NCBI GenBank assembly: GCA_000004985.1
Contig: GG738858.1
Direction: 5' to 3' (one strand)
DNA length: 64,000 nucleotides
DNA from: Naegleria gruberi
Taxonomy: Eukaryota
Part shown: one piece after another, positions 16,471-56,934 of the stretch
Numbering within the stretch: the stretch's first letter is position 1
Layout of the letters: each line of letters starts with the position of its first letter
Position numbers and translations under genes: made by a program
Notes under the pieces: generated by a model
Seen by the model: only the letters and a program-made list of their open reading frames with translations
Told to the model about the DNA's origin: nothing
Database searches by the model: none

Positions 16471-16555
16471 GAGTTTACAACAAGTATTCGTTAAAAAAGT
16501 TCCAAATTGTTCGTTGTAAAGTCTCAAGATGAGCACAAATTTTTAATCAAAAAAA

Positions 16556-17692
16556 ATGGGACAATCACAACCGAGCTACCCGCCACCACTTGCAACAAAA
16601 TGTTCCGAAAATGAAAGATTGGCTGTGATGCAAAAATTGGGAAATTTTGAGATGGCTCCAATTATGGAATTTAAATACTATTTTAATAGGAAATACAAGA
16701 ATAATTATCAACATTCGGATGAGAGTTTAGTTTTCAATGATGAGAATTGTTCGATATTTGAGAGGGAATTACCTGAAGAAGTGTTTATTCACATTTTGAA
16801 ATTTTTAAATCATCGAGAATTAATCAAAATGAGAAGAGTTTGTACAAACTATGAAAGTTATTGGATTCAAAATTCGAAAGTGTGGAATGTAAGATCGTTC
16901 GAAACTGAAAAGGATGAACCAAACATGTTGTTCAAACCAGTTTTGAATTCGCCCATTGAATCCATCTCTTTTTATTACAAACACTTTCTTCCAACCATTG
17001 TAAATTCATTTTACAGAGGCAACACAATTTCATATAGAGAAAGAATCAAAACTATTCTTTTAGGAAGTGAACGATGTGGAAAATCTGAATTAATGAAATT
17101 GGTTATTAACAATTATCAAGATTTTAATCCATTACTGGAATACTCTCCAACTGATGCCCATCTTTACACACCATTAGAAATTATTCCATTCAAGACCTCT
17201 TCTGAAAGAGGAGATTTGTTATTACAATTTTGGGATAGTTCAGGTAAAGAAAAGAGAATTCCCTTTCTCAAACCATTATTAAGGGAGACGAGAATTTATA
17301 CATTTTGTTTTGATTTGAGCGATGTGAAATCTTTCTTTGAAATGAAAAGTAGAATTGAAACTTTTCAAGTGGAATATTTAAATTCTAATTCATTGAATGA
17401 GGAATTAAAAGAAAGTGGAGCTTGCATGTTGGTGATTGGAATGAAGAGAGATTTGGAGAGGAAAGTGAGTAAACTTGAAATTACTAAATATTTGGAAGAA
17501 TTGAGCAAAGTTAAAGATGGAATCTCAATTAAGAGTTTAAGAATTCAATATTTCGAGTTGAGTAGCAAACAGGATTCAAAGAAAGTATTGGAATTTCCAT
17601 TTATTTATGGGTTGACCATGATTGAAGAGCATATTCCACCAGAAGAGACATTAGAAATGATGGCAGCACACTTTATGAAACCTGCAAAATAA
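16556..17692 (+). CDS. F-box-like domain fused to a divergent Ras/Rab-like small GTPase domain
   Basis: MGQSQPS N-terminus (myristoylation-like). The F-box-like motif is LPEEVFIHILKFLNHRELIKMRRVC. The GTPase motifs are G1 LLGSERCGKSELM, G3 FWDSSGKE (catalytic Gln replaced by Lys), G4 VIGMKRDL and G5 ELSSKQD. Confidence 0.55.
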   Translation: MGQSQPSYPPPLATKCSENERLAVMQKLGNFEMAPIMEFKYYFNRKYKNNYQHSDESLVFNDENCSIFERELPEEVFIHILKFLNHRELIKMRRVCTNYESYWIQNSKVWNVRSFETEKDEPNMLFKPVLNSPIESISFYYKHFLPTIVNSFYRGNTISYRERIKTILLGSERCGKSELMKLVINNYQDFNPLLEYSPTDAHLYTPLEIIPFKTSSERGDLLLQFWDSSGKEKRIPFLKPLLRETRIYTFCFDLSDVKSFFEMKSRIETFQVEYLNSNSLNEELKESGACMLVIGMKRDLERKVSKLEITKYLEELSKVKDGISIKSLRIQYFELSSKQDSKKVLEFPFIYGLTMIEEHIPPEETLEMMAAHFMKPAK

Positions 17693-17758: not shown

Positions 17759-19009
17759 ATGAATCCACATCAAAAACCGTCTACACTATCACCTCATAAT
17801 CAAGGAATACTTGTTGATGATATATTTTCCAATGACATTTGTTTTGAAATTTTATCATTTCTTGATTCTTGGTCAATTTTAAATTGTTCTTTAATTTCAA
17901 AACAATTTCGTCAAGTAATCAAGGAGGGAATAAAACTTTCTATTAATTTCCGACAAGAAGTTAACAGTGGAGGATTAGAAAAGCTTGGAAATAGTTCATT
18001 TATCGATAATATAATTTCATTGAAATTTGGAATAATTCCAAATCAATATAAGAAATTCTTTGATTGTTTGAGATTGATGCATCAATTGACCGATCTTTCA
18101 TTATCTAATTTTATATTTGCTACATATGCTGGTAAAAACAGTGAAATTACTGTTGAGCTAGCCAAATGCATCTGTCAATTGAAAAATTTAAAAAAACTTG
18201 ACGTTAGTTATAATTATCATCTTGAGAATGAAGTTGTTGAATTGATAAGTGAATTGAGAGAATTGAGAGAACTTAACATTAGATACTGTGATATTGGAGT
18301 AGAAGAGGTAAAATATCTCACTAAATTGGATAAATTGCATTCTCTGGATATTGGTATTAATCAAATATATGCAGACGGAGCTAAATTATTAAGTACAATG
18401 AAAAGTTTAACAAAGCTTGATGTGGCTGAGTGCGAAATTGGTGATGAGGGATGCCAGTCAATTACAGAGCTTTATCAATTGACTGATCTCAATATAAATG
18501 GTGATGGTATTGGTGTTGGGGGAGCTAACTGTATTGGTCAGATGAGGAATTTAAAAAGTCTCGATATTAGCAATAATTTCTTTGGAAATTATGGAGCAAA
18601 ATCAATAAGTGAGCTATCTCAATTAGAAATTCTTAATGTTTCATATAGTGACATTGATGAAGTGGGAGTTTATCAGTTACGCAAATTGAAAAATTTAACA
18701 TCTCTTTCCATTCATCATAATGAGATAACTGATGAAGGAACTAAATATATAGTAGAATTGGACCAATTAACTCATCTAGATATTAGCAACAATCAAATTG
18801 AAACAGAAGGAGCAAAATCTATTAGTGAAATGAGTCAATTAACCTCATTGAATATTAGTTCTAATATTATAGGTGACGAGGGAGCTCAATATATCAGTCA
18901 TTTAAAAAAACTAACATCACTAAATGTTAGCAAATGTAGAGTGAGTGAAGAAGGAGTTGAATCTATCAGAAAACAATTGAAACACTTGAAAACGCTTGAG
19001 GTAGAATAA
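17759..19009 (+). CDS. F-box / ribonuclease-inhibitor-type leucine-rich-repeat protein
   Basis: The N-terminal F-box-like motif is DICFEILSFLDSWSILNCSLISKQFRQVI. It is followed by at least 10 RI-like LRRs, for example LTSLDISNNQIETEGAKSISEMSQLTSLNISSNIIGDEGAQYISHLKKL. The real ATG is at 17759; the ORF track starts at TTG 17747. Confidence 0.6.
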   Translation: MNPHQKPSTLSPHNQGILVDDIFSNDICFEILSFLDSWSILNCSLISKQFRQVIKEGIKLSINFRQEVNSGGLEKLGNSSFIDNIISLKFGIIPNQYKKFFDCLRLMHQLTDLSLSNFIFATYAGKNSEITVELAKCICQLKNLKKLDVSYNYHLENEVVELISELRELRELNIRYCDIGVEEVKYLTKLDKLHSLDIGINQIYADGAKLLSTMKSLTKLDVAECEIGDEGCQSITELYQLTDLNINGDGIGVGGANCIGQMRNLKSLDISNNFFGNYGAKSISELSQLEILNVSYSDIDEVGVYQLRKLKNLTSLSIHHNEITDEGTKYIVELDQLTHLDISNNQIETEGAKSISEMSQLTSLNISSNIIGDEGAQYISHLKKLTSLNVSKCRVSEEGVESIRKQLKHLKTLEVE

Positions 19010-21195: not shown

Positions 21196-24100
21196 TTAAT
21201 TAACTAGTCCTATCGGAACATAGCAAACCAAACCATAAATACCTCCATCAGGAGTAGTAGTAGCCCACCAACCATATGTTGGATAAGATCCCATAAAGTA
21301 AGCATAGGTAATACTATCACCAGATGCTGGATAATAACTACTGTACCAATCCTTATAGACAATGGTACTTCCATCGGACCAAGTTGTGAAGGAGCCTTGG
21401 GAAATTTCATGTCCCTTAGTACCTAAGAAGAAGGCATTGGTTTCATTCTTTGGAAGGAGATTGTTGGCTAAGAATGTCTTTTCTGTGGCACTTTGAATTT
21501 GGACCAATGAAGCGTTTGGATGGAAATACTTGCACAAACTACTCATTGATTCAACGGCATAATAGTTTTGAAGTTTGGTAAAGTAATAACATCTTCCCAA
21601 TGATGTACTACAGCTCATCTTTCTATACCATGGATAATCAACCATGTTGACCTTTGGAGGTAGAGTTGAAGGAGCAGTAATGATACCTGATGGACCTGTA
21701 ATTGTTCCTTGAGAATATTGAGAACCACCAGCAAGGCCAAATTTGATAATACCTTCTGGAATGTCTCCTGCAATCTTGAGTGTGTAAATCTTGTAGGAAC
21801 CTGGTGCAATAGTGTATGAGCTAGGCAATGACAAGTAGGTGAAACCAGTGAGTCCAGTAATTTGATCAGCACCAATGTAAACAGGGAAGCTTGGTGAATA
21901 ATCATGGAAGGCATCTTGGTTGTATCCTGCTTGTAATTCGAGAGTGAATCTAGTAAGTGCAGGTGATCCAGTAGCAACACTAATATTGTATGTGAAAACA
22001 GTAACTGGAGAGGAAGCGTTCAAGAATGTGGCAGTAGAAGAGGTCTTACCCAAATATTTAACAGAGTAACCACTGCTAGCTAATGGAACGAGTACATTGG
22101 TCTTGGATGTGTCAACAATATTACATGAGTTATCAATAATGGTTTGGTAAATGTTACTCAAATCGTTCCAATTTACCAAGACAAGATTATTTTGATCATA
22201 GTTCATCTTTTGTACTTGAATTTGACCATAACTATCCGTTACAGCAGAGCCTATTCCGATAGCAAGCTGTCTCCAATTCCAAACTGAGCCATAGAGTGAC
22301 ATTTCAGCATTATTAGAGCCACCAATTGACCAAGAGTTAATATCAACTGATCTAACAGTGGCATCAGAACATGGATTACAACGAGATCTATCATCATACC
22401 ACGAGCAAACAGTACAATCTGCGCCTGGGAAGCGAGGGCTCTTACAATAGGATGGGGAAACACCATAGTTTCCAGGATTTGATGAATAGGTTGATCTACA
22501 GCTACCACAAGAGCATGGGTCATTTGAGAGACCATCAGTAATGTGAATCAATAACTTTTGAGAAATTGACTTTCTACCAGAGGCCAACATCATATTAACT
22601 GCAGTATTAATACCTGAAATTGAGTTGGTACCAGATTGAATTTGGGCCATATTCTTGATGGCAGTTAAAACACTAGATTGACTTGTACCAGACTTCAAAT
22701 CCAAGTGAGTTGTAATAGTTGAGGCAAATTGAATAATACCAATGTTTGTTCCAGTTGGAGAGATGTTTGATCCAAAGCCTGTTGTCAAATTGGAAGCAAA
22801 GTTCTTCATGTTAACAAAGTTATCAGCTGTAATACTTCCAGAACCGTCAATAACAAATATGATATCCAAGTTAAGACCGCATTGACACTTGGTGTATTGA
22901 ACTGAGACAACAGCTGATGCTGAGGTACCATCTTGATCTGATTGGATACTGTAAACAAACTTTTGAGTATTACAACTTCCAGTAACTGGATAAACTCTGA
23001 TAATTCTATTGTTGGCAGGATCGGCTGGGTTGAGGATGGCTGGAGTGCCTGATGTACAATATGAGGAATCACCTGATGGACAAGAAATTCCAGTGAAAGT
23101 GAATGTACCACCAAGAGAATCATAGTCATTGCTCAACAAACTTGATACAGAGATATCAATATAGGTATTGAATTGTGTTGATACAAAGTCATTGACAGCA
23201 ACAGGAGGAGAAGCAAGAGCTGAAATTCCAACTTGAACATTCTTAGTAATTGGATTTCTTGCATCAGAATCAGAAACAGCTAAAACAAAGTTACAACTTC
23301 CAAGGAATGTTGCTACTCTCAAAAACTTGACTTGATTGCTGGCAATTGTCAAGGATTGAAGAACGGTGCTATTACAAGTTCCAACATCTGCAATACTCTT
23401 CAAAACTAGAGTGTCTGCAGTGTCGGCATCCTTTGAAGATGAGAGAGAAATATAATCAAATGAAATATAATTATTACTAGCTCTAGAAATTGAATAGACA
23501 TAAGTGTAAGCATTCAAGGTTGGAGCTTGATTAGGTTGAGCAATAATAATCTTACAAATGGCAGTTTGTCCAGCAGTGTTTGTCAAAGAATAGGAAGCAT
23601 AACAATCACTATTTGATGATGAGGTACTTGCTGGAGTGTATGTCAATTTACCAGTAGAGGATGAGATGGAACCAACACCATTAAGAGTAGCAGTGTTAGT
23701 GATAGCCATTGTGACTGGTTCAGAACCAACCTTTGCTGTTAAACTTGTCTTTAAAGCATCTTCAAATTGAGTAGCAGCAGAATTCTTTGTAGTGGAAATT
23801 GTGTAATCAAGACATCCGAAAGAATTACCAGTGATTGTAACAGTGTAAGTGTAGGTTGAAGTTAATTGACCATCAGTCAAGGTGAAAGAGAATTGCAAAG
23901 TTCCCAAATAAGTAGTAGCATAAGTAAGCTTTACAGATCCATCAGAGTTCAACAAGACAGAGGCACCAGTGTTTTGAGTAATCATACTAACACTTGAAAC
24001 AGTAACTGTATCACCATCAGCATCACTTGCACCTGTCAATAGATCAGTGAAAGTATAAGTTGGATTGGAATAACTTCTTTCAATGGTGGTAGTCTTTGCA

Positions 24101-27100
24101 CTTCCAGTTGGAGGTGTATTTCTAATGACTACAGACATGGTAGCATAAGTTGCAACTTGAGCACCATCATAACAACTAAACTTAATGGAGTCTGTAACAT
24201 ATCGTGTTCCATTAGAAAGAGTGGTTGTGTAAGAAATTGAGGAGCTTGGTGTGTAAACAAGAGATCCAGTAGTGTAATCCGAAACAGTTGTTGTACCATA
24301 TGAACCTTGACCAACTCCAAACAAAGACAATGAATCGCTATCAGCATCATAACAGTATTGAGAAACAACATTTGTCAAAGACAAAGTGTTCTTCCAACCA
24401 ATAGTTTTAGAGAATGAAGTAGCTTGAGGAGCAGTATTGGTAAAAACAAGGTTAACAGTGGCAATATTAGAGGTGGCAATTTGATCAGTAATGGTGTATT
24501 GGAATGAATCAGTACCTGGACCATTAATGAAGGTATTCATATAGAAAACAGTTACCAAATCACTTTGTAAAACAAGGGCGGTATTACCTGTTGGCAATTG
24601 AGCACTACCAAAGTTAACATTATTCAAATTCAAAGAATTAGAACCCAAACTCATGATAACACCATACATGTTAACAACATTGAAGTTAAGTTGACCATAG
24701 GTAAGGACATGTCCATAGAATGTACCTTGAATACCTGCAGCGCCAACAATCCAGAAAACGTTCAAGTAACTAGCACCATTCTTGAAACTCCAACTAAAGT
24801 TAGCATTCAAATTTGTGGTGGCAACAAAGATAAAAAGACCACTTCCACTCAATTCAATTTTACCATTTCCATTGAGACCTTGAGAGAAACAATATACACC
24901 TGGAGTAAATGACAAAACACCTGAAGATGGGAAGTTTTGATCAAGAGAGGCAACACAAGACTTTTGTGAAAGATATTGGTAGAGATTTGAGGCAGATGTA
25001 ACAACAGATGAGTAGGCAGCGTTGTTGACACTCAAAGTACCAGTTGGTTTAAGAGCTTGAGCAGTGAAACCAGCAGTGGCAACGCTTCCAGGAACAACCA
25101 AATTGGCAAAGTTATTACAAATGGTTGAACCCTTAGAAATAACAATGTAATCTCCGATACCATTGTATGAACTGACTAAGCTTGATGGATATAACTTGTT
25201 AATATAAATATAATCACCATCAACATCATAATCGTTCAAAACAGGTTTCAAATACAAGGTATTATTGGTCCAGTGTTGAGTGAATGTATTATCAACAGCA
25301 ACAGGAGGAGTATTAGTAATGGTAATGGTAACAGTATTGGTAACACTTGAGAAACCATCAGTTACAACATAGGTGAATGAAGTAGTGAACCCAGCAGTTA
25401 GAGGAACTGGTGTGTACTTGACAAAAGTGGAATTAACAGAAGCAACAGCACCAGTATTTGGTTGAGTGAATGAAACAATGGTCAATGAATCACCATCAGC
25501 ATCAGTAACTCCAGACATCAAATCAATACTGAGGCCACTTTGAACCTTAGCCCAGTGACGACTGAATGTTAATGGAGTTGCTGTAGGAGCGCTATTGGAA
25601 ATAGTAACAAAGATTCCCTTTGATGCAGAAACTCCCATTCCATCAGTTACAGTATAGTTGAAGAATTGTGATGCAGAGTTTCCATTAGAATTGGTGAATG
25701 TGAATGATTTCTTGTCACCACTCAAAGCAACAGTACCTGCACTTGGATTAGTGAATGATGAAATAACAAGATAGTCTCCATCCTCAGTATCAGCATCAGT
25801 TGGCTTGAGAGAATCAGCTCTACCAATAACTGGAATAGAAATTGAGGAAGTGTGACCAGATACAACAATATCTTTAGCAACTGGAAGATTGTTATAGATA
25901 ACAATGCTGAATGTTGCACTTGAAGTGGACCACCCATCAGTGAATGAAACAGTAACGGAATCAGTACCAGTGTAAGCACTATTGACCTTATAGTTAATGG
26001 TGTTTCCTGAACCAAGAGAAGCAACACCAACCAGTGTCTTTGTGACAGCAGTTAAGGTAACAGCATCACCATCAGCATCCTTAAGATAGGAAGAAAGATC
26101 AATAACAGTATTACTCAAAACAGTTCTCCAGTGATATTTGAAAGCTGCAGTAGTATTGGCTGTTGGAACACTATTCAAAATTGTAATGGAAACAGTACCA
26201 GTGACTGTATCTCTTCCATCAGTGATAATATAACTGATTGGGTTGATACTACCAACAAAACCACTGGAAGGAGTGAATTTTACATTTCCAGAGCAAGTGA
26301 CACTACCTTGAGCTGCAGTAACAGATGAAGAGCATGATTGTAATGATAATGAATCTCCATTAGCATCTGAAGAAGCAGAAACAACTTCAAATGTTAAACC
26401 ATTCTTAGCTGAAGACCAAGAACCGACAAATGATTGTGAATTTGTTGTTGGAGCAGTATTGGTAACAGTAACAGTAACAGTTGATGTTGAAGTGGCAATC
26501 TCATCAGTGATTGTATAGTATACAGTATCTGTAGATGGAGCAGTTCTTGGATAGTAAGTAATGTTGGTTGAGGTAAATGTTGGTGACAAAGGAGCTAATG
26601 AACCATAAACATTAGTAACTCTCAATGGATCAGACTCAGCATCAGTATCGTTAGCAACAACATTCAAAGTGTAAGAAGCAACGTTCCAGTGAGTAGTGAG
26701 CTTATCTGGAACAGCTACTGGGGCAGTATTGTAAACAATCAAGTTGACAGTTGTGGTAACTTGACCGTTTGAAGCACCATCAGTAACAATGTACTTGAAT
26801 GAAAGTGAACCCACAAAGTTTCCAGAACCAAGGATTTTGACAGACTTGCTATCCAAAACAGTTACGGAACCAACACTTGGTTGAGAAGCAATTGAAACCA
26901 AACTCAATGAGTCGCCATCAGTATCATAATCAGCTGGAGCATAATTTAAGATATCAATTTCAATACCTGCCTTGAAAGTTCTCCATGGAACTGAAATAGT
27001 CTTGGTTTGAGAAGTTGGAGCGTTGTTTACAACAGTTACAGAGATTGAACTAGTTGAGCTCTTCATAGAGTCAGAAACTCTGTAGTTAGCAGTGTAAACA

Positions 27101-30100
27101 CCAACAGTGTTGGATGCAGTGAATGTGGCAATATTTGAAGAAACAGACAATGATCCCTTACTTGGTTGAGTATCTGCTGAGAAGGACAAGTTATTGACAT
27201 CCAATGGATCAGCATCAGAAGTGTAACTAGTCAAGTTGAAAGCAACACTTTGTCCGAAATGGACTGTACCTGTAATTGCTTGAGCTGTTGGGGCAGTATC
27301 ATAAACAGTCATGGTGAAGACAATGTAACTATTACCACTGCTTGTGTAATATTTCAATGTAAATTGTTCATTACCCAAATAGGATCCAGAAGGTTTATAG
27401 GTAACAGTCTTCAAATCAGAAGAAACACTTACTATACCCCCGTGGTTTGGATCAGATAATGGTGTTTGATCGAGAGTTGTACCAGTCTCTGAAAGCTTAT
27501 CGAGAGGTAAGAATACATATCCAACACTTGAGTATCTGAAATGAACATTGTAGTATTGTTCAGTACTGGATGGAGAAGTTGATGTAATGTTAATCTTCAA
27601 GTAACCAATTGATGTAGTCAATCCATCACTAATGGTATATGGAACAGTGTCAACACCCAATGACTTGACTAAGCTTGGGTCAGGGAAATAGACAATTTTA
27701 CCGTCAGATGGTTGGGCAGCACCACTGCCAAACATGCTTGAAGAACCTACATTCTCAATCTTCAAATATGGAACATCTTGAATGTCAGAATCAGTTGCTA
27801 AAGAAATAACGTCAATAGTGATACCATATTGAATGTTACCACCAGAGTAGGTCAAGGTAAGATTGGCAGCAACTGGAGCATTATTGTAAGAGTTTGTGGT
27901 CAATGTGGCAGAAGATGACTCAAAACCATCTGAGAGAATAACCTTACAAGCATCACTTGATGCAAATGCACTTCTCAAATATTTAACACCCTTGATTCCA
28001 TTTCCTAAATCAACAAGGGAGCAATAAGAGCTGGAACCAGTGTTGAATGAGAGTGAATAATAATCACCATCAGCATCTGTGAGAGTATTGTAAACAGTGT
28101 AAGAAACTCCATTTGTTTGAACAGTTCTCCAATGAGCAGATGTAGATTGATCACTGATAGATGGCTTATTAGTATTGACAATGTTGACTGTAACAGTGGA
28201 AGCTGAGGAGTAGAGAGCTCCATCATATGCCTTGTAAGTGAATGTCTTGGCTCCAAGGGTTGGTGGATTCTTCAATGTATATCTGAGTAAATTATTTACA
28301 ATGCTTAATGATCCTTCACTAACAGATGATGGGTTAGTAACAGTGAGGGCATCATTATCAGCATCAATATCATTAGACAAGACATTAATATCAACGAATG
28401 AAGTATTCCATTGGACAGTAACAGTATCACTATTTGCAACTGGTGCGTTATCAGTACAGTTGACTGTAACAGTGTTGCTTGCGGTTTCAATACCATCAGT
28501 GATTCTGTAAGTGAAAGAGTAAACTCCAATAGAAGCACTTGATTGTTTGTAAACCAACTTGGATGAAACAACAGAGGCAGATCCTTGTGATGGAGCTGAA
28601 ACAATTGGTGTGGTATCAAATGCCAAACTGTCACCATCAGAGTCCGAACATTCACTCAAAATGTCAATGGAAATACCAGAAACACAAGTGGACCACTTGG
28701 ATACAATATTCTTTGAAACTGCTGTTGGAGCGTAATTTTGAATAGTAACAGGATAGGAGGCAGTCTTACTGATCCAACCATCTGTGTAAGAAATGGTCAA
28801 TTGAGAAGCTCCTAACTTGACAGTTTTTGGAAGATTCCAAACAATAACCTTATCAGAATTAATAGTTGGAGTACCATAAGAGCTGTCATATGCAGAAATT
28901 GAGAAAGATACAGAATCACCATCACTATCGGAAATACTTGAAGAAATATCAATAAGAGATTGATTCTTGGTCCAGTGAATACTTGTTGGGAATGGTGTGG
29001 CAATTGGAGCGGAATTTTGTACATCGATATTCCATTTGGCAACACTATTCAATAAGCCATCAGTAAAAGTAACAGTTACAACACATACACCAGTACTTCC
29101 TGCTGCACTAGTGAAAGTAACAGTGGAGGTGGTGTAGGAAACAGAACCACAACTAGAAGTTGAGGCTCCCTTAACAACAACTGTATCTTCAGAGTCAGAA
29201 TCAGTGACGTTGAACCAAGCAATAGCATTCTTAGTATATCCATTGCTTACATCAGTAAAATGTCTTGTTTCAGAGATATCATTTGAAACTGGAGCGTTAT
29301 CATAAACTATAACATTGACAGTGACAATAGAAAAGCTTGAACCATCAGTGATTTGAACCTTGAATGAATCACTTCCCAAGTATCCAGCATTTTGCTTGTA
29401 AATAACGTTTGGAATTGTAGTAGCATCACCATTTGAGATTGTAATACTACCGTGTGCTGGAGCTTGATCTGGAGTGGTAACAATTGACAATGAATCACCA
29501 TCGTTATCAACAGGTTGAGCAATACTGAAAATGTTAATTACAGAACCAGTGGATTGAGTGCTCCAGTGAACAGTCTTTGAGATGGTCTTATCTTGTGGCT
29601 TGTCATTATTTGTAACAGTAATAGAAACAGAAGCAATATTACTTGTTGAAGGACCATCAGTACAAGTGTATGTAAAGTTTTGAACTCCCAAACCAGAAGA
29701 ACTTGGAGTGAAGGAAACAAATGACTTGGATGAATCCAAAACCAAATTACCAGCAAATCCAGAAGAAGTAGTGAATGATTTGATAGCGATTGGATCAGTG
29801 TCAGCATCAACATCATTGGTAAGGAGATTTAATTGCTTGTTGGAAATTCTCCAATGCATTGTATATGAATCGTCATTGGCAACTGGTGCAGTATTAGTAA
29901 CTTCAACATTGACACTACCAACAGTTGATTTACCATAATCAGAAACAACATAAGTGAATGAATCAGTACCAACAAAGTTATTGGCCTCGATAGAAGTATA
30001 GACCAAACCATCAGTTCCATCACCAAGTGTAACACGAGAGACTGAACCCTTAGAACCTTGAGTGAATGAAGCAATATGGAGTGAATCACCATCAGCATCT

Positions 30101-32550
30101 GTACATGATGTTAATACAGGAATGTTAACAGATGATGAACGCCAATGAGTACGAGCAGTGACATCACCAGCAACTGGAGCAGTATTAGAAACAGAAACAG
30201 TTACAGTGGCAGATGAAACAGAAACATCCATACCATCTGTACAAGTGTAAGTGAAGGTATCATTACCAACGAATCCATTACTTGGAACGTAGAGAATGGA
30301 CTTTCCACCTTGATAAATTGAAACAGTAGCACCATTATTGGAAGTATAGGAAACAGAGTTAACAGTGAGAGAATCACCATTGATATCCTTGTCATTATCG
30401 AGAACATTGATAACAACACTTCTATTCCATGAAACAGTTGCTAAATCATCAACTGGAACAGGAGCATCATTGACAACATGAACAGTGACAACAGCCTTAT
30501 TGGAAACTAATTTTTCAACATCAGCAACATCAAATTCGACATAGTCAACATAAACTGAAGACAAAGCAGTATAATTAGCATAATCATTACCAGGTGTGAA
30601 ACTAATAGACAATCCATACGTGCTTTGAGAAAAACTATTATAAGTAATCTTATCACCATTTGGATCATAACTGTTCAAGATTGGATTAATAGAAGAAGTT
30701 AAACCCTTTGAAACTGTAAAGCTTGAAGCAACAGCAACAGGAGCAGTATTAACAACCTTAATAATTACATATCCAGTACGATTGAATGTGCCTTCAGTGC
30801 TTCCATCGGCATTGGTATTAATGACAATGTATGAAGCAACATCTTCACCTGTGAAATCATGAGCTGGTTCATAAAGGGTATTGTTATCGTCTAGTCTGGT
30901 AATTTTACCTCCATTCAAAGTGGTAGCAGAGACAAAATTAAGCTTCAAGACATCACCAGATTGACTGTAATCATTGCTGATAACATCGACAGTGACTTGT
31001 CCATTCTTTTGACAAGTTGCTGTATCATTGACTGGAATAGGAGGAGAAGGAACTACATTGATAGTAATAGTGGCAAGTACAGAATCAACACCATCACTAA
31101 CTTTGACTTTGAAGGATTCAGAGTAGACAACACCTTGCTCTGGAGTGTAAAGAAGAGTATAGGCATTGCTATTAACTTGATAAAAGTCACCACTTGGATA
31201 GTAAACGCTTTTAACAGAAGTAACAACAGACAAGGAGGAAGAACCACGAGTCAATTTGGTAGTTGGAGTCAACGTAACAGTATCCAAGATATCTTCATCA
31301 GAGAAAGTCAAATCAATGAGATTATTCTTTGAATTCTTTGGAACATCAATAGTCAAATCCTTTGCAGAAGGAGGCAAGTTGACTATTTTGATAAAAACAA
31401 ATGAAGAGCTTGTGAGTGCTCCATCTGTAATAGTGTATTCGAAAGCATCACTGGCAGGAGTTGAAATGAATGGCTTTGGAATATATTGCAAGAAAGCACC
31501 TTGAGCACCAACAAGAACAGTACCAGTAGAACCGAGACCAGTAGAACCTGAAACAATTGTAATATTATCACCATTGATATCATAATCGTTTGACAAGACA
31601 CTCAAAGTTGCCATGGTATTCTTATTAACAGTATAGGAATCTGGCTCAGCAGTTGGGGCATCATTTGCAACAATAATCTTGAGAGTAGCTGTTACATTGG
31701 AATAACCATCTGATACAGTATAGTTAAGCTGCTCTTCATTATTAAAGCCATAAGCAGGAGTATAATAAACAAACAATTCATCAAATGAAATGGAACTTCC
31801 CTCAGAAACAGAACCACCCAATGAAGTAATAAAAAGTGTATCTCCATCTACATCAGAAGTCATTCCTCCATTTTCAGTAACAAAGTTGAAAACATCAAAA
31901 TTATTATTCTTTGAATTCTTATTGACTGTATATTGCAAATCAACAACATCTGGAGCACGATTCAAAACTTGGACATGGATTTTTGCTGTGGCAACAGTCC
32001 ATGAATTGGTGATGGTATATTCTAATGTATCATTTCCTGCAAAACTTCCACTTGATGTGTAAACAATTGTATTCTTGGCAGATAACACAGCTTTACCATG
32101 AGCAGGTTGAGTAATATTGAGAATTGTTAAATTTGAAGATCTAGTATCATAATCATTAGAAAGTGGATAGAAATTTGAAGGCACTTTCTTATAAACTTGA
32201 TAATAATCATCCACAGCAACAGGATTGTAAACTGTTGCATTCAAAGTTACCATCAAGATGGTAGCAACAACACTGGCAACAACAAGACTTGAAATAACAG
32301 CACCTATAACAGTTTGACTAATAGTGCCTCCCTATTGAAGAAGATGAAAGGATTCACAAACATGATATTCGAAACAATGTTAAAAATTACAGAAACATGA
32401 AGAACCATCATGGAACATTATATTTCCATCAATACGCATTAGCAAAGGCTATTCGAAACTAAGTATCCTACAAACCTTCAAGAGGGAAATATTGGCTGTA
32501 AAGCCTGTACGAGACACAGTTGAAGAACCCAACACAGTACCTGCAGGCAT
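21196..32550 (-). CDS. Giant (about 3,711 aa) predicted type II membrane adhesin-like protein. It has an N-terminal cytosolic tail plus signal-anchor TM, about 25-30 tandem cadherin-like/bacterial-Ig-like repeats, an embedded DUF3494 ice-binding-like beta-helix, a VWA domain and a C-terminal C-type lectin domain. Exon 1 is 32476..32550, intron 32332..32475, exon 2 is 21196..32331.
   Basis: An uninterrupted 11 kb ORF. Exon 1 (MPAGTVLGSSTVSRTGFTANISLLK, gtttgt donor) splices to GGTISQTVIGAVISSLVVASVVATILMV (TM) in frame. The repeats follow the pattern VxNxAPVA..D..T.HW…ID(V/I)L.ND.D.DGD.L.I… and end …Y.VTDG…S…V.V.V. The DUF3494-like segment runs PGVYCF…LFIFVATTNL…NGASYLNVFWIVGAAGIQGT…GHVLTYGQL, at about 24560..25160. 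The VWA/MIDAS motif is DIIFVIDGSGSI…HITDGLSND, at about 22480..22900. The CTLD runs CYYF…WSDGS…WY…C at 21196..~21640. Confidence 0.8.
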
Positions 32551-47772: not shown

Positions 47773-48189
47773 AGAGAAATTACAGTGGTTCCTATGTAAT
47801 GGTATCTATGGAAAGTTAATTTAATCAGGTCGTAGAACAGATTCTTAAATGCCTTATTTTACATCTGTTTTAAACCATCACAACCTGAAAAAAGATAATG
47901 TATTGGAGTGTATCCAACAAGTCCTAAACAGCCGTTATCGTGCTCAGTCAATTAGTCCACAACATTAGAAAGGTAATTTGTCTTGTTCTTTTTTTCTCAA
48001 GTCAATTACCATTTTCTTGGTGTTGAAAAATGATCAGTTGTGAGTCAATTTTTCCCTAATGATACCTAACCTTGTCCACATCATTCAATTTTTGCTGTGT
48101 TCCCACATAAAAGTGTGCTTAACATTTCTGTAATTTTGCCTTTTCGTTTGACAGCCACTAGAAAAAACGTAATCATAATATTAAAAAAT

Positions 48190-49698
48190 ATGTCACTTGC
48201 CAACCGAGAGAAAAGCAAAAGCTTTAATGTAGGTGACTACATGATAGTTTATGAAGAAGTGATGAAAAACAATCTCGCGAGGGAATGTTTCAGAGATTAT
48301 CTTCAAAATGTGGCATGTAGTGATGAGTCCATTCTTTTTCTAGACGAATACGAAAGATACAAACAGGAATATTCTCGTGTATTCGATATGATACTAAACC
48401 AACCTAATCTATCCGAAATTGACCATCACTGTGGAGAAATATACGATATGGCTGAAGGTTTAATGTACAAATTTATAAAACCAGAAAGTGAAAAGGAATT
48501 AAACGTAGGAAAACCCAAGATTGATTTATGGAAACGATGGAAAGATGAAATTTCATCATGTTCAATTCTAGAGTTTGAATCTTTTCACAAAGTTTTTCAT
48601 GATTTGGATCCAAATTTATTATTTCACGATATTGTAACAAGTGTCAACTTGGATTTACGAATTGATCAATTTCCAAGATTTTCACGATCTCCACAAATTT
48701 ACACTCTATTAGAAAAACAAGGAGAAACATTTACTAGAGCTATAGCTGTTGATATTTCACGAGGTTATCATGTGGATTTTAGATTTAAACCAAAAGATTT
48801 GGTAACTAATTTGATTTTTGATAGAGATTTGTATTTTGCATTTTCATTGATGGAAGATTCGCCTGATTGGCAAACTATTGAAAATAGCAAAAAGACACAA
48901 GCTCAATTTTACTATTCGAAAACACCCTATGTATTCGAAGATCAGAAACATAAGGGAATGCACATGTGTAAGGTGGTGTGTAATTTTGATTATCCCCTTG
49001 AAGATGTTTGGAAAGTTCTGAGACATGTCATTTCATTGGACGAACCTGGACGAACAGTTTCGAATATTAGACAACTAGGCTATATACCACCAAATTCTGA
49101 AAGAAAACCTCAAATGAATGTTGACGAATCAGCAGATCCATCAGAATACAATACACTAGGCCTCACCTTCTCAACATGTGAATTAGATTTCAAAGTTCCT
49201 GGCATGAAGAAGAGAGATATTCCACACACTCATACCACAATCTACGACCAAGCACTGCAGGGCTACGTGAACGTTGGACACACATCTTTCTTCAATGGAT
49301 ACGAAACACCAAAAGATTGTGTCCATGCAGATCTCTTCATTTTTTACTATGTCTGTAAGATTAGTCCATATCGTACTCGTTTCACACACATTGTATATTC
49401 TGATGGACATTTACCTGCAGCCATCAACAAGATTGTAACAATAACCATGTGGAAAAAGAGAGCTCTCTATTTTGAAAAGATATTTAACAAGATACTGAAA
49501 GATTTCACAGATAATGGATCAAGATTAATACGAGAGGGAGAATTGACTGATTGTTTTGGCCTTGATAAAAGTGCAAGAGATAATTTACAGGCATTCCCTA
49601 ATAGATCTTGGTATGAAGAGTATTTAAAGATGTTGCATACGAAAAATCCAAGTCCACGACTGAGTACCACATCCTCTTCAAAGTCATCAACTAAATAA
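48190..49698 (+). CDS. RGS (regulator of G-protein signalling) domain protein
   Basis: The N-terminal segment LARECFRDYLQNVACSDESILFLDEYERYKQEY matches the RGS-box core (F..FL..E.SEEN..FW…E.YK). ATG at 48190. The C-terminal 350 aa is unassigned. Confidence 0.5.
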   Translation: MSLANREKSKSFNVGDYMIVYEEVMKNNLARECFRDYLQNVACSDESILFLDEYERYKQEYSRVFDMILNQPNLSEIDHHCGEIYDMAEGLMYKFIKPESEKELNVGKPKIDLWKRWKDEISSCSILEFESFHKVFHDLDPNLLFHDIVTSVNLDLRIDQFPRFSRSPQIYTLLEKQGETFTRAIAVDISRGYHVDFRFKPKDLVTNLIFDRDLYFAFSLMEDSPDWQTIENSKKTQAQFYYSKTPYVFEDQKHKGMHMCKVVCNFDYPLEDVWKVLRHVISLDEPGRTVSNIRQLGYIPPNSERKPQMNVDESADPSEYNTLGLTFSTCELDFKVPGMKKRDIPHTHTTIYDQALQGYVNVGHTSFFNGYETPKDCVHADLFIFYYVCKISPYRTRFTHIVYSDGHLPAAINKIVTITMWKKRALYFEKIFNKILKDFTDNGSRLIREGELTDCFGLDKSARDNLQAFPNRSWYEEYLKMLHTKNPSPRLSTTSSSKSSTK

Positions 49699-51973: not shown

Positions 51974-53248
51974 TCATTTGGTCCTTTTTGTAATATTTGG
52001 CAATCTTTCTAATGAATGTACTATTGGAAATGCACTGCTTGTGTTTGTGCTTTCTTTTCTCCCAGTGAGAGGATGTACATTCCTCGATCGATTAGGATTT
52101 AAAACATATTCTTTCAGATCCTTAAAATCCTTAACATCCTTCAAATCTTTAACTGCTATACTATCTTTCACTTGACTATCTTTTAATTCTTTCTGATCCT
52201 TCTTCTCCTTTAAATTATATGAATTGAATACGCTCCTTTTTCCTTGAAGAGTATCTGTGGAACTAGCCTTCTTCCTATCCTTTTTAATGGTTGATAAGGT
52301 TTCAGTAGTTTCTGGTAATTGTCTCTTCAAGTTGGATATTTCTTGTTTGATTTCTCTGAGTTCTCTCGGAGTGACAACTCTAGCTCCATTATACAAATGC
52401 AAACTCTCAATTACCTTATCCTTTTCATCACTAACCCTTGTCAAGACTTCAATAAGGGAGTCCTTTCTTTGAAGCTCTTGTTCCAGTAGGGAAAGCTTCT
52501 CCTCGTAAGTTGTTCGGAGTGAGGTTATTTCATCTTGACGAGCCTCCTCTAGTCTCTTCATATTCTTTAGAAGGTGTTCTAAATTCCTCAGATAATTATA
52601 TTTATCATTCCTTGATATGTATGTTTGATTATTATCCTGTTGAAGAAGAAATAATTGTAAATTCCTAACGACTGTTTCCGACAAGGATGTTGTTGAGAGA
52701 GTCCTCAAATCACCTTGAATAGCCTCAATTGATTTTCTAATTTGTTGCAATTCCTCACCCTCTCCTCCTCTAGCATTCGTAATACTACTATGATTTATAT
52801 TATTATTATAATTTAATAGGGCAGATGATGATGGATCATAAACATGAATTGGTGAGAGAATATTAATATTAATCGGCGTTTCTGCTCTGTCCACTTCTTC
52901 AATGCCCGTTGTTTTTGGTGAATTATTCTGACTAGCTAGTGTTGTTTCTACTATATTTCCTTCATCCTTGTTGCTTGAATGATTCTCCTCTTCTACAATT
53001 TCCGTTGAAGTCATCCTATTCGTTTTTGCTGTTGTTGTTGTTGTTAAAATATAACGCTCGCTTATTGAATAATCGCTTAAACAGTCTTTGATGGCAGTTG
53101 AAAAGGCAGTTGAGTGGTGTTGTGCTTTTAAGGAAAATTGAAAGGTTTTGTTCGTTGGGATGTTCAACAAGAATTTTTCTCTGAGCTTTTCGAAAATATC
53201 AATGGCTTGTTGTTTTGAACTGCCATAGAACAACAAAAAAAATGTCAC
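51974..53248 (-). CDS. Hypothetical coiled-coil protein (start uncertain; the ORF track begins at GTG)
   Basis: Long heptad-rich segments (…LQRKDSLIEVLTRVSDEKDKVIESL…) and VKDLKDVKDFKDLKEY repeats. No in-frame ATG near the 5' end, so an upstream exon or an internal start is possible. Confidence 0.35.
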   Translation of the reverse strand: MTFFLLFYGSSKQQAIDIFEKLREKFLLNIPTNKTFQFSLKAQHHSTAFSTAIKDCLSDYSISERYILTTTTTAKTNRMTSTEIVEEENHSSNKDEGNIVETTLASQNNSPKTTGIEEVDRAETPININILSPIHVYDPSSSALLNYNNNINHSSITNARGGEGEELQQIRKSIEAIQGDLRTLSTTSLSETVVRNLQLFLLQQDNNQTYISRNDKYNYLRNLEHLLKNMKRLEEARQDEITSLRTTYEEKLSLLEQELQRKDSLIEVLTRVSDEKDKVIESLHLYNGARVVTPRELREIKQEISNLKRQLPETTETLSTIKKDRKKASSTDTLQGKRSVFNSYNLKEKKDQKELKDSQVKDSIAVKDLKDVKDFKDLKEYVLNPNRSRNVHPLTGRKESTNTSSAFPIVHSLERLPNITKRTK

Positions 53249-54467
53249 TAATTCTTGGGTTAAATGATGACATGTACAGAGTAATATTTAGTTTTTTAGA
53301 AATTGATTTCATTCAAGAATGCATGCGTCTTGTACATACATCATTTAATATTCTCATCATTGAAGATGAAACAATACAACAACAATATTTATTGAAGAAA
53401 GTTCACAAGATGAGCCAAGATCCCGACAAGACACAATCAAATGTTCACTATAGAACTCCACTATATAATAGGTACCAGATGGAGTCCTTCTATTCTCCCT
53501 ATTTTAGAGTGGAAAAAGATTATCACCAAGCATTTCAAAGATTAAAGAGAGAATTTCATAGGAAAATGGAGGAAACTGAGGAGCAGAGAAGAAGTTTGGC
53601 ATCAAATCGTTATTTAACAAAGAAGGATATTTATCATCACTATGAGGAGATTAAATCAACTGTTAATGAAACTCACTTTGAACTATTGAGGGAAAATATT
53701 AGCAAAGAGGATAATGATGGAAAGCCAGTTCTAAAGTTGGTATGTTTGAATATTCTAATTTGAAAGAGTTTTATAATTTCAAAAAGATAATTAATGGAGA
53801 TGGAGGAGCAGGGAAAACATCTCTGCTTCAATATTTGGGATATGGACAAATGTTTGAATATTTCACTGCCCTTGACGCTTGCATTTCTTACTCTATTAAA
53901 TCGAATAACTCTGAAAAACAAGAGGTTATTAGTAAGTTTGAAATAATTGACACTGCAGGTAAGTAGAGTGTAGGTAAACTCTAAAATTAAACAAAAATAG
54001 GGCAGGAAGAGTAAGTACTCTAATTATTGAGCTCTTGAGTTCGTTTTTCAACAAACAGCTATGACAGAGTGAGACCACTAATTTACCCCGATACTCATAT
54101 ATTTTGTCTTTGTTTTAGTATTGTAATGCTTAGTAGTTTTGAAAATATTCAGTATAAATGGATTCCAGAAATTAAGCATCACATGCCAGACACTCCAATA
54201 ATGTTAATGGGTTGTAAAATTGATTTAAGGAAAAATCCTCTATCCTTAAAACAAATGAAATTCAGAAATTTCTCCAAACCTATCAGTTTTGAAGAAGGAG
54301 AATTAATGGCTCGTTCTTCTGGATGCTGTACCTATGTTGAATCCTCTGCACTCACTGGAGAAGGAAACATGACTGACTTTGCAGAAATTGCTTTCAAAAC
54401 TCTGATTTATTATAGAAATAAATCATTGTTATTTCCTGGAAGAGAGAAGAAATGCGAATTGATGTAA
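53242..54467 (+). CDS. F-box-like domain fused to a Rho/Rac-family GTPase with a C-terminal CaaX box. Exons 53242..53739, 53787..53958, a 10-nt micro-exon 54001..54010, and 54059..54467.
   Basis: The F-box-like motif is LNDDMYRVIFSFLEIDFIQECMRLV. The GTPase reads KL|IINGDGGAGKTSLL (G1)…EIIDTAG|GQE|DYDRVRPLIYPDTHIFCLCFSIV. That is an exact Rac switch II, DTAGQEDYDRLRPLSYP, restored only when the micro-exon GGCAGGAAGA is included. LMGCKIDL (G4) and SSALT (G5). C-terminal CELM (CaaX, farnesyl-type). All donors are gtaagt/gtatgt and acceptors ag. Confidence 0.6.
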
Positions 54468-56536: not shown

Positions 56537-56934
56537 TTTTTTTATTAAGATCAAAAAGATTAAGATGATCTTGAAATTTTTTGAGTAACTTTCTATTGAA
56601 TTGAGGATGCTATTCAAACTAATGACCAATCTCTTAAGTATTGAATTGATCTTGTCAGCTGTGGAAATTTTCTTGAAAATTCATCAAGTTTACAAAAGCT
56701 GTTAATACAATTTCTCTGTCGTTTCTCAATTCTTCATTAAATTCAAGTGCTAAAAATCCATCCCTTTCTGCAATTAGTTTTACAATTATTTTCACTTTCC
56801 AAAAATTCAACGGTATGTCATCTAAATCCTCATCTGAACAGAAAAGTGTTTAATTAAATAGGTATATATAAGCATCTTCTTTACAATTATTCGAATCAAA
56901 ACCCTGGACTCTATCTTCAAACATCAATATAAGA

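What the first reader, a model, noticed from the sequence alone, without database searches (positions are those of the whole stretch)
16556..17692. Second F-box–GTPase fusion, with a probably GTPase-deficient Ras/Rab-like domain
MGQSQPS… then an F-box-like motif (LPEEVFIHILKFLNHRELIKMRRVC), then a small-GTPase domain with G1 GSERCGKS. The G3 motif WDSSGKE has Lys in place of the catalytic Gln, and G4 is GMKRD in place of NKxD. Two independent F-box–GTPase fusions occur in 64 kb. They sit next to two F-box/RI-LRR genes (17759..19009 and 54950..56536), suggesting a lineage-specific expansion of F-box architectures.
Basis: partly seen in the sequence, partly recalled or inferred. Interest (0 to 1): 0.6.

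Follow-up and report, generated by a model that had tools for sequence, protein, structure and literature searches.

The report
Known Naegleria F-box Rab-like GTPase gene

Summary

The window is Naegleria gruberi. The public gene model XP_002679216.1 starts at Met92 and cuts the F-box in half. Herman et al. 2021 (BMC Biol 19:142, Table S8) already list the same corrected 378-aa sequence as 'Rab, additional domain F-box'. They describe it as part of Naegleria-specific expansions of F-box Rab-like genes, so it is already known.

Small additions from this work, over 19 family members:
- None has the catalytic Gln after DxxG.
- None has the Asn of NKxD, while the P-loop, the Lys/Asp of G4 and G5 are kept.
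- 17 start with Met-Gly.
- None has a C-terminal Cys motif.
- Relatives also occur in Naegleria lovaniensis and Willaertia magna.

The side claim of two F-box-GTPase fusions in the window is not confirmed. The other gene is a Rac-like GTPase with no detectable F-box.

The most likely function, which is inferred, is a nucleotide-gated SCF substrate receptor, analogous to Rab40-Cul5 and RhoBTB-Cul3.

The parts
16556..17692 (+). Complete intronless coding sequence (378 aa plus TAA) of the F-box Rab-like GTPase. It equals the manually corrected model XP_002679216.1* of Herman et al. 2021. The public NCBI model starts only at Met92 (16829).
   Evidence: ORF; P0001, 287 aa, 100% identical, starts MRRVC; identical 378-aa sequence in Table S8, 'Rab', 'F-box'
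16556..16576 (+). N-terminal MGQSQPS. Gly2 is conserved in 17 of 19 family members, so it is a candidate N-myristoylation site. This member does not fit PROSITE PS00008, because it has Pro at pattern position 5.
   Evidence: 17/19 Gly2, 12/19 match PS00008, query does not; that it is myristoylated is inference
16766..16861 (+). F-box (residues 71-102, ELPEEVFIHILKFLNHRELIKMRRVCTNYESY). The helical region continues to about residue 110.
   Evidence: PF00646 25.4 bits, PF12937 25.1 bits; family profile hits FBXW8, KDM2B, Cdc4, FBXW7, Skp2; 19/19 members; helices 74-82, 86-94, 97-103; pLDDT 83-88
16862..17041 (+). Family-specific linker between the F-box and the GTPase (residues 103-162). It keeps the conserved W103, W110 and P128, and has a predicted long helix at 133-149. 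It has no Pfam family.
   Evidence: conserved columns; secondary structure; no family
17042..17632 (+). Divergent Rab-like small-GTPase domain (residues 163-359).
17063..17086 (+). G1 / P-loop GSERCGKS (residues 170-177), which is canonical GxxxxGK[ST].
   Evidence: 18/19 family members canonical
17231..17251 (+). G3 / switch II WDSSGKE (residues 226-232). DxxG is kept, and Lys231 (17246-17248) sits where Ras Gln61 / Rab Gln is.
   Evidence: aligned to WDTAGQE of Ypt7 and Sec4; 0/19 family members have Gln here: K, H, S, D, E, N, G
17438..17452 (+). G4 GMKRD (residues 295-299). Lys and Asp of NKxD are kept, and Asn is replaced by Met.
   Evidence: 0/19 have Asn; L, M, T or F instead; Lys in 18/19, Asp/Glu in 19/19
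17549..17569 (+). G5 YFELSSK (residues 332-338), equivalent to the ETSAK motif and strongly conserved in the family.
   Evidence: Y332 and E334 invariant, F333 in at least 90% of members, S336 and K338 consensus

Best explanation
Identity (shown). The gene is an intact, intronless Naegleria gruberi gene for a member of the heterolobosean F-box Rab-like GTPase family. The protein has five parts:
- a Met-Gly N-terminus;
- about 60 poorly conserved residues;
- an F-box;
- a roughly 60-residue family-specific linker;
- a divergent Rab-like G domain that has no prenylation motif.

Mechanism (inferred). The F-box docks the protein on Skp1-Cul1-Rbx1. The G domain takes the place of the usual WD40 or LRR substrate-binding module. 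The protein would then be an SCF substrate receptor whose partner binding depends on the bound nucleotide. This is the 'GTPase-dependent ubiquitination' idea of Herman et al.

Nucleotide binding is probably kept, because G1, the Lys/Asp of G4 and G5 are conserved. The cis catalytic Gln is missing across the whole family. The protein is therefore expected to hydrolyse GTP slowly on its own. It would either stay mostly GTP-bound or depend on a GAP that supplies catalytic residues in trans.

The conserved Gly2 suggests membrane attachment by N-terminal acylation, in place of the C-terminal prenylation of ordinary Rabs.
For: Identity:
- 100% identity to N. gruberi P0001.
- The identical 378-aa sequence appears in Herman et al. 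2021 Table S8 as 'Rab', XP_002679216.1*, 'F-box'.
- The nearest relatives are N. gruberi, N. lovaniensis and Willaertia magna proteins with the same colinear architecture.

Domains:
- Pfam F-box and Ras are both above their cut-offs, and both match in 19/19 members.
- The N-terminal profile hits solved F-box proteins.
- The AF2 model has pLDDT 77.6 and pTM 0.78, with Rab-like fold matches.

Not decaying:
- 55 of 61 family-consensus residues are retained.

Motif pattern:
- G1 is canonical in 18/19 members.
- Gln after DxxG is present in 0/19.
- Asn of NKxD is present in 0/19, while Lys and Asp/Glu are kept.
- G5 is conserved.
- Gly2 is present in 17/19.
- No member has a C-terminal CaaX or CC motif.

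Established knowledge, not tested here:
- F-boxes bind Skp1.
- Substitutions at RAS Gln61, including Q61K, impair hydrolysis.
- Rab40 with a SOCS box and Cul5 (PMC8129794, PMC10509765) and RhoBTB with Cul3 (PMC4931677, PMC3812982) show that a small-GTPase domain can act as part of a cullin-ligase substrate adaptor.
Against: - No experiment or expression data for this gene could be reached.
- Skp1 binding, nucleotide binding, hydrolysis and acylation are all untested.
- This member's switch I is unusual. It reads PTDAHL with a 3-residue insertion where paralogues have TIGVEF, and the model is poor there (pLDDT 54-62).
- Its N-terminus fails the PROSITE myristoylation pattern.
- Herman et al. 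state that no specific functional prediction is possible from sequence, and that some family members look like pseudogenes.
- The Asn-to-Met change in G4 could lower nucleotide affinity. From memory, Asn-to-Ile at this position is used to make nucleotide-free Rab/Ras mutants. The solved Ypt7 chain 5ldd_C indeed shows GIKID at this place.
Confidence: 0.55

Rival explanations
1. The F-box works in cis. It couples the GTPase itself to SCF-dependent turnover or processing, so that the Rab-like switch is short-lived, and it does not recruit other substrates.
For: This role was proposed for the F-box of the trypanosome FYVE-F-box-GTPase TbFRP, which is rapidly cleaved and turned over (PMC3593210). 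F-box proteins are commonly auto-ubiquitinated (general knowledge). A GTPase without a catalytic Gln would need another off-switch, and degradation could be it.
Against: There are no data for Naegleria. A cis degron does not explain why the F-box, the linker and the G domain are conserved as one colinear unit across three genera. The model's pTM of 0.78 suggests a fixed arrangement.
Confidence: 0.2
2. The F-box binds Skp1 in a non-SCF complex. The protein then acts as a membrane-traffic or signalling Rab-like switch without ubiquitin-ligase activity.
For: From general knowledge (not checked here), yeast Rcy1-Skp1 works in endosomal recycling without Cul1 and cooperates with Ypt31/32 Rabs. The G domain here is most similar to Rabs. 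The family has candidate N-terminal acylation signals, including MGQSISCC and MGQLCCG in Willaertia.
Against: Nothing in the sequence distinguishes SCF from non-SCF use of an F-box. The family lacks Rab prenylation motifs, and this member lacks the RabF1 effector-region motif.
Confidence: 0.15
3. The gene is a decaying or functionless copy in a rapidly evolving birth-and-death family, and its odd G motifs reflect relaxed selection.
For: Herman et al. report disrupted copies in these clades and recent birth-and-death evolution. No ortholog above about 44% identity was found, so the copy is specific to N. gruberi. Its switch I is aberrant, and its Pfam Ras score is low (31 bits, against a best family E-value of 8e-25).
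Against: The ORF is intact over 378 codons. It retains 55/61 family-consensus residues, more than most members. The Gln and Asn substitutions are shared by all 19 members across three genera, so they are ancestral features and not private decay.
Confidence: 0.07
4. It is not a true fusion. The F-box part and the GTPase part are separate genes or an ORF artefact, as the public 287-aa gene model would imply.
For: NCBI and JGI model XP_002679216.1 (P0001) starts at Met92 and carries only GTPase Pfam domains.
Against: That start cuts the F-box in the middle (residues 71-102). The reading frame is continuous from an ATG three codons after a stop. Paralogues and relatives in three genera are colinear from MGQ to the C-terminus. 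The curated model of Herman et al. is the 378-aa form.
Confidence: 0.03

Closest known systems
Naegleria divergent Rab-like GTPases with an N-terminal F-box (Herman et al. 2021, BMC Biol 19:142, Supplementary Material 4, Fig. S5/S7, Table S8)
   Same: This is the same gene. The identical 378-aa sequence is listed as 'Rab', XP_002679216.1* (manually corrected model), additional domain 'F-box'. At least 14 consecutive N. gruberi rows carry 'Rab ... F-box'. Six of my aligned relatives are among them: XP_002672750, XP_002672693, XP_002672819, XP_002677172, XP_002673544 and XP_002681903.
   Different: Nothing differs in kind. The paper's held text and supplements do not mention the family-wide loss of the catalytic Gln or of the NKxD Asn, the conserved Gly2, or Willaertia. 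The paper says there are no close relatives outside Naegleria, whereas I find colinear relatives in Willaertia magna.
Rab40 (Rab GTPase with a SOCS box that assembles a Cullin5 ligase)
   Same: It uses the same logic: a Rab-type G domain is fused to a short cullin-adaptor docking motif, and the GTPase serves as the substrate-recognition part of a cullin-RING ligase (PMC8129794, PMC10509765, PMC9070665). From general knowledge, the SOCS box docks on Elongin C, a Skp1 relative.
   Different: Rab40 has a C-terminal SOCS box, uses Cul5, and is prenylated. Here the F-box is N-terminal, the presumed partners are Skp1 and Cul1, there is no prenylation motif and no catalytic Gln. No SOCS-box match was found. 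It is an analogue, not a relative.
RhoBTB atypical Rho GTPases (Cul3 adaptors)
   Same: An atypical small-GTPase domain that cycles poorly is joined to a cullin-binding module, and acts in ubiquitination and vesicle traffic (PMC4931677, PMC3812982).
   Different: RhoBTB combines BTB domains and Cul3 with a Rho-type G domain. No BTB domain is present here.
TbFRP / euglenozoan FYVE-F-box-Ras-like GTPase (Exp Parasitol 2013, PMC3593210)
   Same: It is another F-box followed by a Rab/Ras-like GTPase in a discobid protist. The authors tie its F-box to rapid turnover.
   Different: [quoted passage not shown] Its authors found no N. gruberi ortholog. None of the best 150 hits of my family profile that I could place by architecture was FRP-like. 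Whether the two share an ancestral F-box-GTPase fusion was not resolved.
Legionella effector proteins that combine Rab domains with F-box or U-box domains
   Same: They have an F-box plus Rab-like domain combination, in bacteria that live in amoebae including Naegleria (bioRxiv 10.1101/350777).
   Different: They are bacterial secreted effectors. No bacterial protein appeared among the colinear full-length relatives I checked.

Membership tests
Heterolobosean F-box Rab-like GTPase clade (Herman et al. 2021) | N-terminal extension recognisable as an F-box upstream of the GTPase domain | tested here: met
   Pfam F-box 25.4 bits and F-box-like 25.1 bits, both above cut-off. The family profile hits solved F-box proteins. 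19/19 relatives match.
Heterolobosean F-box Rab-like GTPase clade (Herman et al. 2021) | Divergent Rab-like G domain whose nearest relatives are other clade members | tested here: met
Heterolobosean F-box Rab-like GTPase clade (Herman et al. 2021) | Listed by the authors as a member | tested here: met
   Exact sequence match in Table S8: 'Rab', XP_002679216.1*, 'F-box'.
SCF substrate receptor (functional F-box protein) | F-box sequence motif (LPxE...I...L...L......V.+.W/Y) | tested here: met
   LPEEVFIHILKFLNHRELIKMRRVCTNYESYW. It aligns with FBXW8 and KDM2B F-boxes.
SCF substrate receptor (functional F-box protein) | Binds Skp1 and assembles with Cul1-Rbx1 | not testable with these tools
   This needs pull-down or two-hybrid assays with N. 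gruberi Skp1. The presence of Skp1 and Cul1 in N. gruberi was not checked here, and the literature search gave nothing useful.
SCF substrate receptor (functional F-box protein) | Recruits substrates that become ubiquitinated | not testable with these tools
   No data.
Canonical Rab GTPase | G1 P-loop GxxxxGK[ST], G3 DxxG and G5 SAK-like motifs | tested here: met
   GSERCGKS, WDSSG and LSSK.
Canonical Rab GTPase | Catalytic Gln after DxxG (WDTAGQE) | tested here: not met
   Lys231 is aligned to the Gln of Ypt7 and Sec4. 0/19 family members have Gln.
Canonical Rab GTPase | G4 NKxD | tested here: not met
   The motif is MKRD. 0/19 family members have Asn.
Canonical Rab GTPase | Rab-family switch-I motif (RabF1, IGVDF-like) | tested here: not met
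   The query has PTDAHL with an insertion where most paralogues have TIGVEF or TIGVDF.
Canonical Rab GTPase | C-terminal Cys prenylation motif (CC, CxC or CaaX) | tested here: not met
   The C-terminus is ...HFMKPAK, with no Cys. None of the 19 members has the motif.
Rab40 (SOCS-box Rab) | SOCS box C-terminal to the Rab domain | tested here: not met
   No SOCS-box family appears among the Pfam hits at E<=1.
RhoBTB | BTB domains | tested here: not met
   No BTB family appears among the Pfam hits at E<=1.
Euglenozoan FRP (FYVE-F-box-GTPase) | N-terminal FYVE domain | tested here: not met
   No FYVE hit. The FRP authors found no N. gruberi ortholog.
N-myristoylated protein | Gly2 plus an NMT-compatible context (PROSITE PS00008) | tested here: inconclusive
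   Gly2 is present and conserved in 17/19 members, and 12/19 fit PS00008. The query (GQSQPS) does not fit, because it has Pro at pattern position 5.

The most novel reading that the evidence does not exclude
The whole heterolobosean family (Naegleria, Willaertia and uncultured relatives) may be membrane-anchored, N-acylated SCF receptors. Their Rab-like domain would have given up intrinsic GTP hydrolysis early in the family's history: no cis Gln and no NKxD Asn in any of 19 members, while the nucleotide-binding residues are kept. That would make a protist-specific, nucleotide-gated ubiquitin-ligase system, evolved independently of animal Rab40-Cul5 and RhoBTB-Cul3. It may share an origin with the euglenozoan FYVE-F-box-GTPase FRP.
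Probability: 0.3. Interest if true: 0.45.

Novelty: already known. Interest (0 to 1): 0.2.

Why it matters
This adds little new. The architecture, the corrected gene model and the lineage-specific expansion were all published in 2021.

The case is still a useful example. The public NCBI model XP_002679216.1 is truncated and hides the F-box, so automated annotation misses the fusion.

The family-level motif pattern found here gives a concrete, testable hypothesis for a group of proteins that has never been studied at the bench. The pattern is that the catalytic Gln and the NKxD Asn are always missing, nucleotide-binding residues are kept, Gly2 is conserved and there is no prenylation. The hypothesis is a GTP-gated F-box receptor. 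If confirmed, it would be a third independent marriage of a small GTPase with a cullin ligase.

Tried and rejected
- phmmer of the protein against all window ORFs found no paralogue in the window. The 'first fusion' is therefore not a relative. It is a Rac-like gene, found with Rac1, Ras and Ran queries and a P-loop regex.
- NCBIfam gave no hits, as expected for a eukaryotic protein.
- AlphaFold with only 4 sequences was unusable (pLDDT 41). It was repeated with 19 sequences.
- Foldseek against afdb50 was meant to find other F-box-plus-GTPase architectures, including TbFRP. It could not run because the library was not installed.
- The word-indexed search of 5.8 billion proteins with the N-terminal (F-box plus linker) profile returned nothing at E<=0.01, not even known members. 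I treat this as a limit of the tool and not as evidence of absence.
- Several high-scoring multi-stretch hits of the exhaustive search (P0008, P0011, P0012, P0016, P0021 and others) turned out to be tandem multi-Rab proteins whose scores add up. They are not relatives of the fusion.
- A bacterial (amoeba symbiont) or giant-virus origin of the window was considered at first, because of low GC and dense long ORFs. It was rejected by the 100% match to N. gruberi.
- A literature search for Naegleria Skp1 and cullin gave nothing usable.

Full report
**Observation.** The window has about 33% GC, with dense long ORFs on both strands. At 16556..17692 (+) there is one uninterrupted ORF of 378 codons that ends in TAA. 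The stop-to-stop frame opens at 16547, so the ATG at 16556 is the first possible start.

**Domains.** The Pfam hits above curated cut-offs are:
- Ras, 31.0 bits (cut-off 21.6), residues 165-341;
- Arf, 28.7 bits;
- F-box, 25.4 bits (cut-off 20.5), residues 71-102;
- F-box-like, 25.1 bits (cut-off 24.3).

The scores are modest, so I tested the domains at family level. All 19 aligned relatives match both Pfam Ras and Pfam F-box. A profile of only the N-terminal region (F-box plus linker, 13 sequences) finds almost only F-box proteins among solved structures: FBXW8 at E=3.6e-4, then KDM2B, Cdc4, FBXL5, FBXW7, FBXL2 and Skp2.

**Organism and prior knowledge.** The protein is 100% identical over 287 residues to a Naegleria gruberi 'predicted protein' on a 782-kb scaffold (P0001). 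That public model begins at MRRVC, which is Met92 of the ORF. It therefore cuts the F-box in two and carries only GTPase Pfam domains.

Herman et al. 2021 (BMC Biol 19:142, PMC8296547) re-annotated Ras-superfamily genes of Naegleria. Their Table S8 contains the identical 378-aa sequence (MGQSQPSYPPPLATKC...HFMKPAK) under 'Rab', XP_002679216.1* (manually corrected model), additional domain 'F-box'. Their Supplementary Material 4 makes four relevant points:
- All three have a conserved N-terminal extension that is recognisable as an F-box in at least some members.
- This points to 'GTPase-dependent ubiquitination'.

The finding is therefore correct but already known.

**Family survey.** An exhaustive HMMER profile search of 1.84 billion representatives gave 31 hits at E<=1e-30. 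The hits that are colinear over F-box, linker and G domain come from:
- N. gruberi: XP_002672750, XP_002672693, XP_002672819, XP_002677172, XP_002673544 and XP_002681903, all listed as 'Rab ... F-box' in Table S8;
- N. lovaniensis;
- Willaertia magna;
- unnamed ENA, JGI and Logan assemblies.

The family thus reaches at least one other vahlkampfiid genus, slightly beyond what the paper states. Other high scorers are tandem multi-Rab proteins whose domain scores add up, so they are irrelevant.

The closest relative of the window protein is only about 36-44% identical. The copy is therefore specific to N. gruberi, which fits birth-and-death evolution. It keeps 55 of 61 family-consensus residues, more than most members, so it does not look like a decaying copy.

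**Motifs.** Over 19 members:

| Feature | Family pattern |
|---|---|
| G1, GxxxxGK[ST] | Canonical in 18 of 19 |
| G3, DxxG | Kept in most members |
| Residue after DxxG (catalytic Gln) | Never Gln; K, H, S, D, E, N or G instead |
| First residue of G4 (NKxD Asn) | Never Asn; L, M, T or F instead |
| Lys and Asp/Glu of G4 | Retained |
| G5 | YFE[LVI]S[SAC]K, strongly conserved |

They are ancestral family characters, not private defects.

Their meaning is inferred from general knowledge. Substitutions at RAS Gln61, including Q61K, impair hydrolysis, so slow intrinsic GTPase activity is likely. However, TBC RabGAPs supply a Gln in trans, and Rho GTPases naturally carry TKxD. Regulated hydrolysis and good nucleotide binding therefore remain possible. 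Asn-to-Ile at G4 is a classical change that lowers nucleotide affinity, and the solved Ypt7 chain 5ldd_C shows GIKID at this place (that it is an engineered mutant is my recollection). Weaker or faster-exchanging nucleotide binding is therefore also possible.

This particular member also has an aberrant switch I, PTDAHL with a 3-residue insertion where paralogues have TIGVEF. The model is weakest there.

**Membrane anchoring.** None of the 19 members ends in a Cys motif. Seventeen begin with Met-Gly-Gln/Asn, and 12 fit the PROSITE N-myristoylation pattern. Some Willaertia members add Cys clusters (MGQSISCC, MGQLCCG). The window protein has Gly2 but Pro at pattern position 5, so its own acylation is uncertain. 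The paper's held text does not mention myristoylation, the Gln or Asn losses, or Willaertia.

**Side claims.**
- The gene directly downstream (17747/17759..19009) is a true F-box (26.2 bits) plus RI-type LRR protein.
- The ORF at 54950..56629 (-) is a strong LRR protein with only a sub-threshold F-box-like match (17.7 bits against 24.3).
- The other 'F-box-GTPase' is a multi-exon Rac-like gene at about 53239..54467. It has the P-loop GDGGAGKT, matches Rac1 at E=1.8e-33, and scores 108 bits for Pfam Ras on the spliced product. Its 160-residue N-terminal extension gives no F-box match even at E<=10. A paralogue reaches only 15.1 bits. Table S8 lists the gene as 'Rac', XP_002679223.1*, without an extra domain.

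'Two independent F-box-GTPase fusions in 64 kb' is therefore not confirmed. The general idea of lineage-specific F-box expansion is supported by the literature.

**Mechanism.** What is shown is the architecture and the conservation pattern. What is inferred is the following. The F-box docks on Skp1-Cul1. The G domain replaces the usual substrate-binding module, so that partner recruitment depends on the nucleotide state. Intrinsic hydrolysis is slow. Attachment to membranes, if any, is by N-terminal acylation.

The best-studied analogues are Rab40 (Rab plus SOCS box, Cul5 ligase; PMC8129794, PMC10509765) and RhoBTB (atypical Rho plus BTB, Cul3 ligase; PMC4931677, PMC3812982). Both are analogues by logic only, since the protein has no SOCS box and no BTB domain. 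The trypanosome FYVE-F-box-GTPase TbFRP is the nearest case among protists. It has a FYVE domain that is absent here, and its authors found no Naegleria ortholog. Common ancestry is unresolved.

The rivals are cis-acting turnover of the GTPase itself, a non-SCF Skp1 complex, a functionless copy, and a gene-model artefact. They are weighed in the rival list.

**Verdict.**
- Novelty is 'already known'.
- Interest is low. The family-wide motif pattern adds a modest, testable hypothesis.

Noticed in passing
window 21196..32256 (-): A single uninterrupted 3686-aa ORF is built from bacterial-type Ig (Big_9, 17 stretches), bacterial cadherin-like (Cadherin_4 and Cadherin_5) and VWA domains. Its local GC of 0.37-0.385 is higher than the roughly 0.33 of the surroundings. 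It may be a giant adhesin acquired by horizontal transfer in Naegleria.
   Followed up: partly
window ~53239..54467 (+): A multi-exon Rac-like GTPase (XP_002679223.1* in Herman et al. Table S8) has at least three short GT-AG introns and a 160-aa N-terminal extension. The extension starts with an F-box-like LNDDMYRVIFSFL but gives no Pfam F-box match even at E<=10. A paralogue reaches 15 bits.
   Followed up: yes
window 54950..56629 (-): A large LRR protein (LRR_14, 119 bits) whose F-box-like match is below the Pfam cut-off (17.7 bits against 24.3). Calling it an F-box/LRR gene is not secure.
   Followed up: partly
window 16829 (Met92) and protein P0002: Public gene models of this family are often wrong. 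XP_002679216.1 starts inside the F-box. XP_002670446.1 (P0002) lacks about 50 residues of the linker compared with the corrected model, probably because of a false intron. Automated domain censuses will therefore undercount F-box-GTPase fusions.
   Followed up: partly
proteins P0030, P0062, P0070, P0085, P0101 (Willaertia magna); P0004, P0013, P0017, P0024, P0027, P0028 (ENA/JGI/Logan): Colinear F-box Rab-like relatives exist in Willaertia magna and in environmental assemblies, although the 2021 paper reports no close relatives outside Naegleria. One Willaertia member (P0085, 925 aa) has long low-complexity inserts and a large C-terminal extension.
   Followed up: partly
window 59789..61654 (+): A 621-aa protein made of 12 copies of DUF4116 (498 bits), a repeat of unknown function.
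   Followed up: no
window 48097..49698 (+) and 57711..59678 (+): Two further signalling genes: an RGS-domain protein (38.5 bits), and a protein with a borderline adenylate/guanylate-cyclase domain (21.4 bits against 21.9). With the two GTPases, this makes a signalling-rich stretch.
   Followed up: no
proteins P0008, P0011, P0012, P0016, P0021, P0023, P0026 (database hits): Proteins made of two to four tandem complete Rab domains turned up as high scorers in the exhaustive search. Their sources were not looked up.
   Followed up: no
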